64,000 bases of DNA, taken from the NCBI RefSeq assembly GCF_013167455.1, contig NZ_CP038328.1. One strand, 5' to 3'. Position 1 is the stretch's first letter. Each line of letters begins with the position of its first letter. Below the pieces are notes generated by a model that saw nothing but the letters and a program-made list of their open reading frames with translations, ran no database searches and was not told the DNA's origin. Positions 20,658-27,716 of the stretch are shown here, one piece after another. A program made the position numbers and the translations under genes. Origin of the DNA: Escherichia coli O157:H7. GTDB lineage: Bacteria; Pseudomonadota; Gammaproteobacteria; Enterobacterales; Enterobacteriaceae.

Positions 20658-21389
20658 TCAGCCTGTTACCAAAGAAGTTGCAACCTGGCGTTCATCAGAA
20701 ATAATGTGCGTTACCTCATCCAGATGCCCGATGCGGGCTTCCCCTGAACGATTAAATTTACTTTTATCAATCAATAACAACGATTGCGCGGCGCGTTTTA
20801 ATAGCATTGATTTGTAATCAGCGTTGATAGCATTGGAGTCCCACAGTGCGCCGCTGCTATCGATCCCTTCACAAGAAAAAATAAACAGATCGATTTCCAG
20901 CGATTTAAGTTGGGAAATCAGCGAGGGATTGACGTAACAGCCATATTTGCGCTCAAGTGTGCCGCCGGAACTGATCAGTTGAATGCGTTCGCGTTTACCG
21001 AGTTCATGGCAAATCGGATGGCTATTGGTGAAGACCTGAATGTTGATGTCAGGCAACTGGCGTGCCAGATACCAGCAAGTTGAACTGGCGTCTAAGGCTA
21101 TCACCATCCCTTCTTCAATCCACGCGAGCGCCTCGCGCGCGATATCTGCTTTATGCGCATAATGGCTTTTCAGCCTGATGTGAAAGGGATCGCCACTGTC
21201 TTGATTTTGACGGTGGATATATTTAGCGCGTCCATGATTGCGCAGAATTTTACCCTGCGTCTGTAATTCATTGAGATCGCGACGAATGGTTTCTTTACTG
21301 ACCTTTAGCTGTTCAGAGAGAGCTTCCGTGGTCAGGCTGGTATGGTTCAGCAGCAGGTCGACTATCGCTTGCTGGCGTGCCGCTTTCAT
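20658..21389 (-). CDS. fucR: DeoR-family activator of the L-fucose regulon
   Basis: 243-aa protein from MKAARQQAIVDLL..; N-terminal HTH; located downstream of fucU. Confidence 0.9.
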   Translation of the reverse strand: MKAARQQAIVDLLLNHTSLTTEALSEQLKVSKETIRRDLNELQTQGKILRNHGRAKYIHRQNQDSGDPFHIRLKSHYAHKADIAREALAWIEEGMVIALDASSTCWYLARQLPDINIQVFTNSHPICHELGKRERIQLISSGGTLERKYGCYVNPSLISQLKSLEIDLFIFSCEGIDSSGALWDSNAINADYKSMLLKRAAQSLLLIDKSKFNRSGEARIGHLDEVTHIISDERQVATSLVTG

Positions 21390-21446
21390 ATTTTTCACCC
21401 CATCATTCGATAACCGCCCGCGTCATGCGGGCGTACCGGTATGAGA

Positions 21447-25205: not shown

Positions 25206-26522
25206 TCAGTTAGTTGCCGTTTGAGAACGGAAACGGGCAAAGATAAAGATGACCGCGAAGCAGAGTGCGGGGATCAGTTCAGCAGTGGGGATGTTGCCCG
25301 CCGCGTCACTGACAAAACCCATGACCGGAGTGACAATACCGCCGCCAATGATGGTCATAACGATGAAGGACGAACCGTATTTGGTGTCCTGGCCGAGATT
25401 CTTAATGCCCAGCGAGAAGATTGTTGGGTACTGAATCGACATAAAGGCGCTGCATAAAGTCAGGGCTATTAAGCCCACATGACTGCCAGCGAAGGCTGAG
25501 ATCAGGCACAGTGCCATAGCGATTAATGCGTAGGCGGCCAGGACTTTGTGTGGTGCGAAGCGACTGATGAGCCAGGTACCGGTGAAACGACCAATAAAGA
25601 AGCACACCATGGTTCCGGTTAAATAGTTAGCGGCAAAGCCTGCAGTCATGCCTGGAATTTCTTCTACAGCGTAGCGAATCAAATAGCTCCAGCAGGCCGT
25701 TTGTGCGCCAACGTAGCAGAATTGCGCTAATACTGCCCAGCGCCAGTGGCGAATACGCGCCAGGCGAGAAAGCGATGCGGAGAACGATCCTTGTTTGGCG
25801 TCACTGTGATTATCACTCTGCAATGCCGGGAATTTCGTCAGCATGATCAGCAGGGCGACCAGTAACACGATAGCCACGATGATCATATAAGGTGTCTGTA
25901 CCGATAATACCAGGCTGTGTTTATACGCACTCAATTGCTCTGGAGACATTTTATCGAGAACGTCTTGCGATTGATGTGGCACGTTAGACAAAATAAGACT
26001 TTGCCCAAAGACAACCGCGATAATTGCGCCAAATGAGTTAAATGTTTGCGCAAGATTTAAGCGGAAGTGACCACTGCTTTCCGGCCCTAATACCGTAACA
26101 AAAGGGTTTGCGGCAGTTTCCAGACAACCTAATCCGGCTGCAATAATAAATAGGCCAACTAAAAATAAGGTGTAGTTCATTATTTCTGCGGCGGGCCAGA
26201 ATAATGCAGCACCCAAGGCATATAAAAATAATCCGGTAATAATTCCTGCTTTATAACTGAGTTTTTTCATCAATATCCCAGCAGGAATTGGGATAATGAA
26301 ATAACCAAAGTAAAAGGCCGATTGGATCAGGCCAGCCTGGAAATTTGTCAGTGTAAAAGCCTGCTGGAATTGAGGTAATAAAATGTCGTTAAGGTTATTG
26401 GCTACCGCCCAAAGAAAAAACAGTGAGCACAGCAGCGCGAATGGAATAATGTAACTTCTGCTTTGCCCTGCATCTTTATCTACCGCACGGTAACTCTGCG
26501 TTTGTATTGATGTGTTTCCCAT
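25206..26522 (-). CDS. fucP: L-fucose:H+ symporter (MFS)
   Basis: 438-aa polytopic membrane ORF recognised as FucP. Confidence 0.95.
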   Translation of the reverse strand: MGNTSIQTQSYRAVDKDAGQSRSYIIPFALLCSLFFLWAVANNLNDILLPQFQQAFTLTNFQAGLIQSAFYFGYFIIPIPAGILMKKLSYKAGIITGLFLYALGAALFWPAAEIMNYTLFLVGLFIIAAGLGCLETAANPFVTVLGPESSGHFRLNLAQTFNSFGAIIAVVFGQSLILSNVPHQSQDVLDKMSPEQLSAYKHSLVLSVQTPYMIIVAIVLLVALLIMLTKFPALQSDNHSDAKQGSFSASLSRLARIRHWRWAVLAQFCYVGAQTACWSYLIRYAVEEIPGMTAGFAANYLTGTMVCFFIGRFTGTWLISRFAPHKVLAAYALIAMALCLISAFAGSHVGLIALTLCSAFMSIQYPTIFSLGIKNLGQDTKYGSSFIVMTIIGGGIVTPVMGFVSDAAGNIPTAELIPALCFAVIFIFARFRSQTATN

Positions 26523-26707
26523 AGCATCCTCTTAGGTTCAGAAGCTTAAGCACGTAATCGGTTATGTTTTCAAAAGTGCAAAACTAGCGAGTTCGGGCTT
26601 CATATCAGTGAATATTTGCCTGTCTGAAATGAACTCATGGATTCATTTTCAAATAAAAAACGCTCTGTAATATGACGGCGGTCACACTTATTAGCTGGAA
26701 GGTGACT

Positions 26708-26729
26708 TTATGTGACTACCATCACTTTA
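26708..26729. promoter_or_regulatory. Candidate CRP site in the divergent fucPIK / fucAO control region
   Basis: TGTGA-CTACCA-TCACT (26711-26726) matches the TGTGA-N6-TCACA core with one mismatch. Confidence 0.45.
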
Positions 26730-27068
26730 ATAATCGAAATTTCATGCCCGTTTCAGAAAATAAATCATAAAAAACACAAACCAGATGACCGTATTAATTG
26801 TTTATGCCGAAAACGGGCATTCCTGGCTTGGGTGAATAGAAAAATGACCGTTTTGATAAATATTTTTAAGAGCGGTCATTTTTAATGGGGTTATAAAAAG
26901 AGAACTTGCAGTTATTTACTGTGATTAGTTGAACTAGGTCACAAAATATAAGCTTGTGAATTTCTTTCTTGTTAATCAGGAAGAAGATGGTGGGTAATTA
27001 AACGGCTAATTCAATAGTGTGAAAGGAACAACATTATTGCCCTGTTTTGAATCAGAGAGAGGTAGCTA

Positions 27069-27716
27069 ATGGAACGAAATAAACTTGCTCGTCAGATTAT
27101 TGACACTTGCCTGGAAATGACCCGCCTGGGACTGAACCAGGGGACAGCGGGGAACGTCAGTGTACGTTATCAGGATGGGATGCTGATTACGCCTACAGGC
27201 ATTCCATATGAAAAACTGACGGAGTCGCATATTGTCTTTATTGATGGCAACGGTAAACATGAGGAAGGAAAGCTCCCCTCAAGCGAGTGGCGTTTCCATA
27301 TGGCGGCCTATCAAAGCAGACCGGATGCCAACGCGGTTGTTCACAATCATGCCGTTCATTGCACAGCAGTTTCCATTCTTAACCGACCGATCCCCGCTAT
27401 TCACTACATGATTGCGGCGGCTGGCGGTAATTCTATTCCTTGCGCGCCTTATGCGACCTTTGGAACACGCGAACTTTCTGAACATGTTGCGCTGGCTCTC
27501 AAAAATCGTAAGGCAACTTTGTTACAACATCATGGGCTTATCGCTTGTGAGGTGAATCTGGAAAAAGCGTTATGGCTGGCGCATGAAGTTGAAGTGCTGG
27601 CGCAACTTTACCTGACGACCCTGGCGATTACGGACCCGGTGCCAGTGCTGAGCGATGAAGAGATTGCCGTAGTGCTGGAGAAATTCAAAACCTATGGGTT
27701 ACGGATTGAAGAGTAA
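27069..27716 (+). CDS. fucA: L-fuculose-1-phosphate aldolase
   Basis: 215-aa ORF recognised as FucA (class II aldolase). Confidence 0.95.
   Translation: MERNKLARQIIDTCLEMTRLGLNQGTAGNVSVRYQDGMLITPTGIPYEKLTESHIVFIDGNGKHEEGKLPSSEWRFHMAAYQSRPDANAVVHNHAVHCTAVSILNRPIPAIHYMIAAAGGNSIPCAPYATFGTRELSEHVALALKNRKATLLQHHGLIACEVNLEKALWLAHEVEVLAQLYLTTLAITDPVPVLSDEEIAVVLEKFKTYGLRIEE

What the first reader, a model, noticed from the sequence alone, without database searches (positions are those of the whole stretch)
26523..27068. 546-bp divergent fuc control region with CRP-like site and a 24-bp imperfect palindrome
Besides the TGTGA-N6-TCACT site at 26711-26726, there is an imperfect palindrome TGTGATTAGTTGAACTAGGTCACA at 26920-26943 with TGTGA/TCACA ends 14 bp apart (not CRP spacing), and recurrent GACCGT/GGTCAT motifs. 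These are candidate FucR or CRP operators.
Basis: inference. Interest (0 to 1): 0.25.

Follow-up and report, generated by a model that had tools for sequence, protein, structure and literature searches.

The report
Known E. coli fucose-regulon control region

Summary
Window 26523-27068 is the 546-bp fucP/fucA divergent intergenic region of E. coli, the same length as in K-12 with 9 SNPs.

- **CRP sites.** TGTGA-N6-TCACT at 26711-26726 is the published site OCrp1. The "24-bp palindrome" is not a unit: only its right part, gTTGA-N6-TCACA inside 26925-46, is the validated site OCrp2. Its left TGTGA arm is not conserved, and only 6 of 12 positions pair.
- **FucR sites.** The GACCGT/GGTCAT repeats are copies of the FucR core CGG(T/G)CAT. 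GGTCAT at 26874 lies in the validated operator OFucR3.
- **Chance.** The IGR holds four CRP-like sites against 0.26 in shuffles, and five FucR heptamers against 0.05.
- **Conservation.** In 46 orthologous intergenic regions, from Escherichia to Yersinia and Photorhabdus, OCrp0, OCrp1, OCrp2 and five FucR cores are kept. OCrp3 is found only in Escherichia.

The modest addition is the layout. The five FucR cores alternate in orientation and fall into two spacing-rigid modules joined by a variable linker. Three of them (26744, 26785, 26844) are not given as sequences in the papers I could read.

Verdict: already known, low interest.

The parts
20658..21398 (-). fucR, the DeoR-family regulator that reads the CGGKCAT cores
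   Evidence: Pfam HTH_DeoR and DeoRC domains. It lies downstream of fucK and fucU in the same operon.
25206..26522 (-). fucP (L-fucose:H+ symporter), first gene of the leftward operon
   Evidence: NCBIfam equivalog NF007524, 975 bits.
26577..26587 (-). SrsR (YgfI) box reported for K-12 (gCtGgTTTTGC); here it reads GCTAGTTTTGC because of the SNP at 26585
   Evidence: Table 1 of PMC9181523 and the alignment to K-12. PMC11011485 found that SrsR does not regulate fucAO.
26643..26660 (-). Conserved block taken to be the fucPIKUR core promoter (-10 region). The inferred TSS is near 26637.
   Evidence: Mean identity 0.82, 99.8th percentile of the IGR. The TSS position is an inference. It assumes OCrp0 sits at -41.5, it lands on a T on the fucP strand as PMC11894529 states, and it leaves the SrsR box in the 5'UTR.
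26668..26689 (.). OCrp0, TAATATGACGGCGGTCACACTT, a CRP site of the fucPIKUR promoter
   Evidence: Sequence given in PMC11894529. One mismatch to TGTGA-N6-TCACA. Core identity 0.99 across species.
26695..26698 (.). Position of the K-12 IS5 insertion hotspot CTAG; it reads CTGG in this strain
   Evidence: The window allele of the surrounding 61 bp is in 2479 of 5014 E. coli genomes.
26708..26729 (.).
   Evidence: It lies downstream of the IS5 site, as OCrp1 is described. It sits 39-40 bp from OCrp0 in 44 of 47 species. Its mean identity is at the 99.2nd percentile.
26744..26753 (-). FucR-like core 'a' (reads AAACGGGCAT on the minus strand, facing fucP)
   Evidence: Mean identity 0.89. At a fixed offset of +33/34 from OCrp1 in 40 of 44 species. 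No sequence is given for it in the papers read; probably one of the 'putative OR0/OR1'.
26785..26794 (-).
   Evidence: Mean identity 0.80. It lies 40-42 bp from 'a' and 29-30 bp from 'c'. Dispensable for PfucAO, since the V5 truncation keeps full activity.
26806..26820 (+). OFucR2 (core 'c'), CCGAAAACGGGCATT; K-12 has CGGTCAT
   Evidence: Mutation gave about 30% loss of induced PfucAO activity. The SNP at 26817 is seen. Core identity 0.87.
26844..26853 (-). It forms the left arm of a 44-bp palindrome (26840-26883) with OFucR3.
   Evidence: Inverted repeat I1, 25-nt arms, 84% complementary. The most conserved core, 0.92, 99.6th percentile. It lies 29-30 bp from 'e' in all 34 species where both were found. 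Not tested on its own in the literature read.
26866..26880 (+).
   Evidence: Mutation lowered induced PfucAO more than 50-fold. It lies 54-55 bp upstream of OCrp2 in all 34 species scored.
26925..26946 (.). OCrp2, TTAGTTGAACTAGGTCACAAAA, the essential CRP site of PfucAO (centre -70.5).
   Evidence: Mutation gave 14-fold loss without inducer and 350-fold loss with fucose. TTGA and TCACA are conserved. Present in 46 of 47 species. The spacer SNP C>T is at 26935.
26996..27006 (+). PfucAO -10 element AATTAA (26996-27001) and the 5'RACE TSS, C at 27006 (-63 from the ATG)
   Evidence: PMC11011485 section 2.4, mapped onto the window. K-12 is identical here.
27015..27036 (.). OCrp3, TAGTGTGAAAGGAACAACATTA, a minor CRP site in the fucA 5'UTR
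   Evidence: Mutation gave about 30% loss. Found only in Escherichia, 4 of 47. Mean identity 0.34, 2.5th percentile.
27069..27716 (+). fucA (L-fuculose-phosphate aldolase), first gene of the rightward fucAO operon
   Evidence: NCBIfam TIGR01086, 444 bits.

Best explanation
The region is the E. coli fuc regulon control region. It holds two activator-dependent promoters that fire in opposite directions, and both need cAMP-CRP and the DeoR-family activator FucR charged with fuculose-1-phosphate.

Leftward promoter (PfucPIKUR). I infer that it also uses FucR cores a and b, which face fucP.

Rightward promoter (PfucAO, TSS 27006). It uses OCrp2 (26925-46, centre -70.5), the weak and Escherichia-only OCrp3 in the 5'UTR, and the FucR operators OFucR3 (26866-80, essential for induction) and OFucR2 (26806-20, auxiliary).

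The GACCGT/GGTCAT repeats are the FucR core CGG(T/G)CAT on either strand.

Shown by published experiments: the roles of OCrp0, OCrp2, OCrp3, OFucR2 and OFucR3, and the fucA TSS. Shown here: identity of the locus, statistical excess of the motifs, deep conservation, and fixed spacing. Inferred: the fucP TSS near 26637 with OCrp0 at -41.5, and FucR binding at cores a, b and d.
For: - Locus identity. The flanking genes are fucP, fucI and fucK on one side and fucA and fucO on the other. The 801-bp query is 100% identical to E. coli 2017C-4109 and is present in 5041 of 5426 complete E. coli genomes. The IGR is colinear with K-12, with 9 SNPs and no indel.
- Published site sequences match the window: OCrp0, OCrp2 and OCrp3, OFucR2 and OFucR3 with the FucR consensus, the TSS and -10 element, and the truncation end points.
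- Excess over chance is shown. Four of the 19 window hits to AAACGGKCAT (at most 1 mismatch) lie within 110 bp.
- Conservation in 46 orthologous IGRs was shown by alignment and without alignment.
- The cognate regulator FucR is encoded in the window.
Against: - None of the binding events was measured here. The FucR sites in the literature rest on a DAP-seq motif plus reporter mutagenesis, not on footprints.
- The papers that define OCrp0 and OCrp1 at the fucP promoter and the fucP TSS (Podolny 1999, Chen 1989, Zhang 2010) were not available. The OCrp1 assignment therefore rests on its described position relative to OCrp0 and the IS5 site.
- The published -35 string 'TTGtgA at -96 to -91' does not match the sequence at those coordinates. 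The sequence there is TAATCA, and TTGTGA lies at -115 to -110 (26954-59). The core promoter anatomy is thus not fully settled.
- A simple sigma-70 scan finds no promoter in the region. This fits activator dependence but offers no independent support.
Confidence: 0.92

Rival explanations
1. The 24-bp string TGTGA-N14-TCACA (26920-43) is a genuine operator in its own right, for a dimeric factor with widely spaced half-sites or for a second CRP register.
For: The string exists, and it is the only TGTGA-N14-TCACA in 64 kb. A TGTGA within 30 bp upstream of a TCACA arises in only 2% of IGR shuffles.
Against: Only 6 of 12 positions are complementary. The left TGTGA has a mean identity of 0.46 across 47 species, while the right TCACA has 1.00. 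The conserved partner of TCACA is TTGA at N6 spacing, and mutating exactly those two motifs abolished the promoter. TGTGA at 26920 has no TCACA-like partner at N6.
Confidence: 0.03
2. The motifs are chance matches in AT-rich intergenic DNA with no regulatory meaning.
For: The IGR is 35.5% GC against 50.5% for the window. The CRP pattern is at chance level window-wide.
Against: Composition-matched shuffles of the IGR give 0.26 against 4 observed and 0.05 against 5 observed. The sites are the most conserved blocks across genera, with fixed spacing. Published mutagenesis supports them.
Confidence: 0.01
3. The conserved blocks reflect a small RNA or small protein encoded in the IGR rather than protein-binding sites.
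For: Short ORFs of 20-57 aa exist. A weak Rfam match (tsr25, 20 bits, E = 0.09) overlaps 26809-26917.
Against: The Rfam hit is far below its gathering score of 63 bits and belongs to a Staphylococcus family. Conservation comes in 6-12-bp islands separated by unconserved DNA. Orthologous IGR lengths range from 419 to 665 bp, with a linker that varies between 24 and 52 bp. That pattern is not the signature of a coding region or a structured RNA.
Confidence: 0.02
4. Sub-hypothesis on FucR. The five cores are not independent sites. They work as convergent pairs (ATGACCG-N22/23-CGGKCAT: b/c and d/e), each bound by a FucR dimer or tetramer, and together they form a higher-order complex that links the two promoters.
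For: The start-to-start spacings b->c and d->e are 29-30 bp in 40 of 40 and 34 of 34 species, while c->d varies from 24 to 52 bp. The d/e pair forms a 44-bp palindrome. Photorhabdus has a third pair, 34> and 63<, also 29 bp apart. DeoR-family regulators are oligomers that bind multiple operators (general knowledge).
Against: Truncation V6 starts at -206 (26863). It removes c and d but keeps e, and it loses only about 30% of induced activity. That is the same loss as the point mutation of c alone. So e works without its supposed partner d in that assay. Core a has no partner in most species.
Confidence: 0.4

Closest known systems
E. coli K-12 fucPIKUR/fucAO intergenic regulatory region (Zhang et al. 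2024, PMC11011485; Zhang et al. 2025, PMC11894529)
   Same: Same locus, same 546-bp length, same order of OCrp0, OCrp1, OFucR2, OFucR3, OCrp2, -10 element, TSS and OCrp3. Identical at 537 of 546 positions.
   Different: Nine SNPs. Three fall in named elements. CTAG becomes CTGG at the IS5 hotspot (26697). CGGTCAT becomes CGGGCAT in OFucR2 (26817), a change the published consensus allows. C becomes T in the OCrp2 spacer (26935); the 61 bp around it match the window exactly in only 321 of 5020 genomes, including O157:H7. The SrsR box also loses one match (26585).
CRP-dependent promoters with tandem or upstream CRP sites (Class I, II and III in the Busby & Ebright scheme)
   Same: Sites of the 22-bp TGTGA-N6-TCACA type. 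OCrp2 is centred at -70.5 (Class I-like). OCrp0 and OCrp1 are 40 bp apart, and OCrp0 is inferred at -41.5 (Class II-like). The promoters are co-dependent on a second activator.
   Different: OCrp2 has a degenerate left half (gTTGA). OCrp3 sits downstream of the TSS (+20.5) and is not conserved outside Escherichia.
DeoR-family multi-operator systems (E. coli DeoR, GlpR and others)
   Same: The regulator has HTH_DeoR and DeoRC domains, senses a sugar phosphate, and has several repeated operator cores spread over more than 100 bp.
   Different: FucR acts as an activator, not a repressor. Its cores are single 7-10-bp units that alternate in orientation at about 29-30-bp steps, rather than adjacent palindromes or tandem 20-bp operators. 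This comparison comes from general knowledge and was not tested here.

Membership tests
E. coli fuc regulon control region (orthologous locus) | Lies between divergent fucP(IKUR) and fucA(O) genes | tested here: met
   NCBIfam equivalog hits for FucP, FucI, FucK, FucA and FucO. FucU and FucR domains are present. RefSeq annotation of identical DNA agrees.
E. coli fuc regulon control region (orthologous locus) | Colinear near-identity with the K-12 reference IGR | tested here: met
   546 bp against 546 bp, 9 SNPs, no indel.
cAMP-CRP binding site | Match to TGTGA-N6-TCACA with 6-bp spacing | tested here: met
26671 (1 mismatch), 26711 (1), 26928 (2) and 27018 (2).
cAMP-CRP binding site | Conserved in orthologous promoters | tested here: met
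   OCrp0 and OCrp1 occur as a pair in 44 of 47 species, and OCrp2 in 46 of 47. This is not met for OCrp3 (4 of 47) or for the TGTGA at 26920.
cAMP-CRP binding site | Sensible position relative to a mapped TSS | tested here: inconclusive
   OCrp2 is at -70.5 from the published fucA TSS. The positions of OCrp0 and OCrp1 relative to the fucP TSS are only inferred, because the primary papers were not available.
cAMP-CRP binding site | Physical binding by CRP or loss of function on mutation | not testable with these tools
   Published reporter mutagenesis exists for OCrp0, OCrp2 and OCrp3. For OCrp1 the cited work was not readable here.
FucR operator | Match to the DAP-seq consensus ..AAAACGG(T/G)CAT(T), with CGG and CA the most conserved positions | tested here: met
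   Five cores match: a, c and d with no mismatch to AAACGGKCAT, b with 1, and e with 2 (sequence). The consensus is quoted.
FucR operator | Conservation where FucR-type fuc loci occur | tested here: met
   The cross-species consensus is AAACGGtCAt at all five positions. Fixed offsets are shown.
FucR operator | FucR-dependent function or binding | not testable with these tools
   Published for OFucR2 and OFucR3 only. Cores a, b and d are untested. a and b are dispensable for PfucAO (V5), and d appears dispensable too (V6).

The most novel reading that the evidence does not exclude
The FucR cores form a five-member array that alternates in orientation and is built from two spacing-rigid modules. 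The fucP-side module is OCrp0 -40- OCrp1 -33- a -41- b -29- c. The fucA-side module is d -29/30- e -54/55- OCrp2. A linker between them varies from 24 to 52 bp. The binding unit would then be a convergent half-site pair about 29-30 bp apart. The published OFucR2 would belong structurally to the fucP module. Core d, the best-conserved core and the best match to the consensus, would be a so far untested operator.
Probability: 0.4. Interest if true: 0.3.

Novelty: already known. Interest (0 to 1): 0.1.

Why it matters
For the genome scan this closes the item. The motifs are the documented CRP and FucR operators of a textbook sugar regulon, and nothing here suggests a new kind of element.

The comparative footprint adds three small points for specialists:
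- Three deeply conserved FucR-type cores have no published functional test that I could find.
- The sites fall into two rigid modules.
- OCrp3 and the IS5 hotspot are recent features of Escherichia or K-12, not ancestral parts of the switch.

The IS5 point bears on how general the IS5-mediated propanediol-growth adaptation is among E. coli strains.

Tried and rejected
- A simple sigma-70 promoter and terminator scan of 26450-27150 found nothing. This is uninformative for activator-dependent promoters.
- An Rfam scan found only a sub-threshold Staphylococcus sRNA match. Rejected.
- Small ORFs in the IGR were rejected because conservation is in islands and the region carries many indels.
- A PDB sequence search with FucR gave no hit, so there is no structural guide to operator geometry.
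- The primary papers on the fucP promoter (Podolny 1999 PMC94201, Chen 1989 PMC210477, Zhang 2010 PMC2838058) are not held. The fucP TSS and the OCrp1 evidence could not be read first-hand.
- The fucose biosensor paper has no operator information.
- I did not build a full CRP weight matrix. Mismatch counts with shuffles and cross-species conservation were used instead.
- I considered treating d/e as an obligatory palindromic operator, and downgraded the idea because of the published V6 truncation result.

Full report
**1. What is there**

The interval 26523-27068 is a 546-bp, AT-rich spacer (35.5% GC against 50.5% for the window). It lies between two ORFs. On the minus strand is a 438-aa ORF that scores 975 bits on the L-fucose:H+ symporter equivalog. 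On the plus strand is a 215-aa ORF that scores 444 bits on the FucA equivalog. FucI and FucK follow the first, and FucO follows the second. FucU and a DeoR-family protein (HTH_DeoR plus DeoRC), which is FucR, complete the leftward operon.

The DNA is 100% identical to E. coli strain 2017C-4109. A match occurs in 5041 of 5426 complete E. coli genomes, always annotated fucA/fucP. Against K-12 MG1655 the spacer has the same length, nine SNPs and no indel.

**2. The observation**

- The CRP-like pattern TGTGA-N6-TCACA (at most 2 mismatches) is at chance level across the 64-kb window, 25 observed against 26 expected.
- Four of those 25 matches lie in this 546-bp spacer. Composition-matched shuffles of the spacer give 0.26, and only 1 of 2000 shuffles reaches 4.
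- The heptamer ATG[AC]CCG, counted on both strands, occurs five times against 0.05 expected, and 0 of 5000 shuffles reach that.
- The "24-bp imperfect palindrome" is poor as a palindrome: 6 of 12 positions pair, which is the two end pentamers plus one.

**3. Mapping to published work**

Two recent papers from the Saier laboratory dissect exactly this spacer.

- OCrp0 is given as taaTaTGAcggcggTCACActt (PMC11894529). This is window 26668-26689.
- The IS5 hotspot CTAG lies between OCrp0 and OCrp1. This is 26695-98.
- The next CRP-type site, 26708-29, is therefore OCrp1.
- OCrp2 is ttagtTGAaccaggTCACAaaa, and its mutation reduced PfucAO 14-fold without inducer and 350-fold with fucose. This is 26925-46, with one spacer SNP.
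- OCrp3, tagTGTGAaaggaacaACAtta, gave about 30% loss when mutated. This is 27015-36.
- The FucR DAP-seq consensus has the core CGG(T/G)CA(T).
- OFucR2 is CCGAAAACGGTCATT, and its mutation gave about 30% loss. This is 26806-20, and here the core reads CGGGCAT.
- OFucR3 is TTAAGAGCGGTCATT, and its mutation gave more than 50-fold loss. This is 26866-80.
- The 5'RACE TSS of fucA is a C at -63, which is 27006. OCrp2 is then centred at -70.5 and OCrp3 at +20.5.

The two GACCGT strings are the same core on the other strand.

One inconsistency is worth recording. The paper places a -35 element "TTGtgA" at -96 to -91. The sequence at those coordinates is TAATCA in both K-12 and this window. TTGTGA occurs at -115 to -110 (26954-59).

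**4.

A scan of one genome per species with FucA returned 80 loci. Forty-six of them have a divergent fucP upstream with a spacer of 419-665 bp. They include Escherichia, Salmonella, Citrobacter, Klebsiella, Raoultella, Kluyvera, Yokenella, Kosakonia, Hafnia, Buttiauxella, Rahnella, Yersinia and Photorhabdus.

In a MAFFT alignment the mean per-column identity to the window is 0.56. The table gives the identity of each element and its rank among all IGR stretches of the same length.

| Element | Mean identity | Percentile in the IGR |
|---|---|---|
| OCrp0 cores | 0.99 | 100 |
| OCrp1 | 0.78 | 99.2 |
| TCACA arm of OCrp2 | 1.00 | 99.4 |
| Block 26643-60 (fucP core promoter) | 0.82 | 99.8 |
| FucR core a | 0.89 | 98.7 |
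| FucR core b | 0.80 | 92.9 |
| FucR core c | 0.87 | 98.3 |
| FucR core d | 0.92 | 99.6 |
| FucR core e | 0.74 | 85.7 |
| OCrp3 | 0.34 | 2.5 |
| IS5 target | 0.25 | 3.9 |

The top ten rows are the conserved islands. The last three rows are not conserved.

Alignment-free scans agree. The OCrp0/OCrp1 pair, 39-40 bp apart, is present in 44 of 47 sequences. OCrp2 is present in 46 of 47. OCrp3 is present only in the four Escherichia sequences.

**5. What the comparison adds**

Read in the orientation CGGKCAT, all five cores share the cross-species consensus AAACGGtCAt.

Anchored on OCrp1, their offsets are nearly invariant:
- OCrp1 to a: 33-34 bp
- a to b: 40-42 bp
- b to c: 29-30 bp
- d to e: 29-30 bp
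- e to OCrp2: 54-55 bp
- c to d: 24-52 bp, the only variable step

The spacer is thus two rigid modules joined by a flexible linker. Cores a, b and d face fucP, and cores c and e face fucA. The pairs b/c and d/e are convergent, of the form ATGACCG-N22/23-CGGKCAT. The d/e pair was found independently as a 44-bp palindrome.

[quoted passage not shown] These are probably a and b. I found no description or test of d.

The published truncations limit what can be claimed:
- V5 starts at -270 (26799). It lacks a and b and keeps full PfucAO activity.
- V6 starts at -206 (26863). It lacks c and d and loses only about 30%, the same as the point mutant of c.

So d is not needed for fucAO induction in that assay. 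If d is functional, its role would lie at fucPIKUR, or in cooperative occupancy at native FucR levels.

**6. Mechanism**

- **Shown in the literature:** cAMP-CRP at OCrp2 is essential for PfucAO. FucR with fuculose-1-phosphate bound at OFucR3 provides induction and is proposed to help CRP bind. OFucR2 and OCrp3 are auxiliary. OCrp0 activates the IS5 fusion promoter, and OCrp0 and OCrp1 serve fucPIKUR.
- **Inferred here:** if OCrp0 sits at the Class II position -41.5, the fucP TSS is at 26637. That base is a T on the fucP strand, as the 2025 paper states, and it leaves the SrsR box (26577-87) in the 5'UTR, as the 2024 paper states. Cores a and b would then sit roughly 110 and 150 bp upstream of it.

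**7. Verdict**

The feature is real, and the general interpretation is correct and already published. The specific 24-bp palindrome is a coincidental pairing. Novelty: already known. Interest: low. The modular FucR array is a small, testable refinement.

Noticed in passing
window 26695-26698: The K-12 IS5 insertion hotspot CTAG, the site of all IS5-activated propanediol-positive mutants, reads CTGG in this strain. The surrounding 61 bp are identical to the window in 2479 of 5014 E. coli genomes, so the window's version of this segment is common. Whether the other genomes all carry CTAG was not checked. A TTAG (CTAA on the other strand) lies just upstream at 26691-94.
   Followed up: partly
window 26935 (OCrp2 spacer) and 26817 (OFucR2 core): There are strain SNPs inside validated operators. 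C>T lies at the centre of OCrp2; only 321 of 5020 genomes match the window exactly over the surrounding 61 bp, and these include O157:H7. T>G turns the OFucR2 core from CGGTCAT into CGGGCAT, which the published consensus allows. Effects on regulation are unknown.
   Followed up: partly
window 62626-62641 and 62569-62584: A perfect consensus CRP core, TGTGATTACGATCACA, and a 1-mismatch site 57 bp away lie in the divergent ygcW/yqcE intergenic region.
   Followed up: partly
window 26954-26978: The published PfucAO -35 element 'TTGtgA at -96 to -91' (PMC11011485) does not match the sequence at those coordinates, which is TAATCA (26973-78). TTGTGA lies at 26954-59 (-115 to -110), 36 bp from the proposed -10 element. 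The core promoter assignment therefore looks unsettled. Neither hexamer is well conserved (identity 0.44 and 0.59).
   Followed up: partly
window 26577-26587: The SrsR (YgfI) box reported for K-12 (GCTGGTTTTGC, 8 of 11 matches) is GCTAGTTTTGC here, 7 of 11, because of the SNP at 26585.
   Followed up: no
loci L025, L032-L039, L043-L045 and others: About 30 of the 80 FucA-bearing loci have no divergent fucP upstream. They include several Citrobacter, Atlantibacter, Buttiauxella and Enterobacter hormaechei. These are probably FucA paralogues or differently organised fuc clusters. Edwardsiella has only a 44-46%-identical FucP-like gene about 1 kb away.
   Followed up: no
E. coli genome collection: 385 of 5426 complete E. 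coli genomes gave no megablast match to the 801-bp fucP-fucA junction. At least one (PEC240, H15) matches only the fucA end, which suggests deletions or insertions at this locus in some lineages.
   Followed up: no
window 26590-26598 (GAGTTCGGG) and 26523-26545: Two further conserved islands lie in the presumed fucP 5'UTR. The second is the RBS-proximal leader. The first has no assigned function.
   Followed up: no
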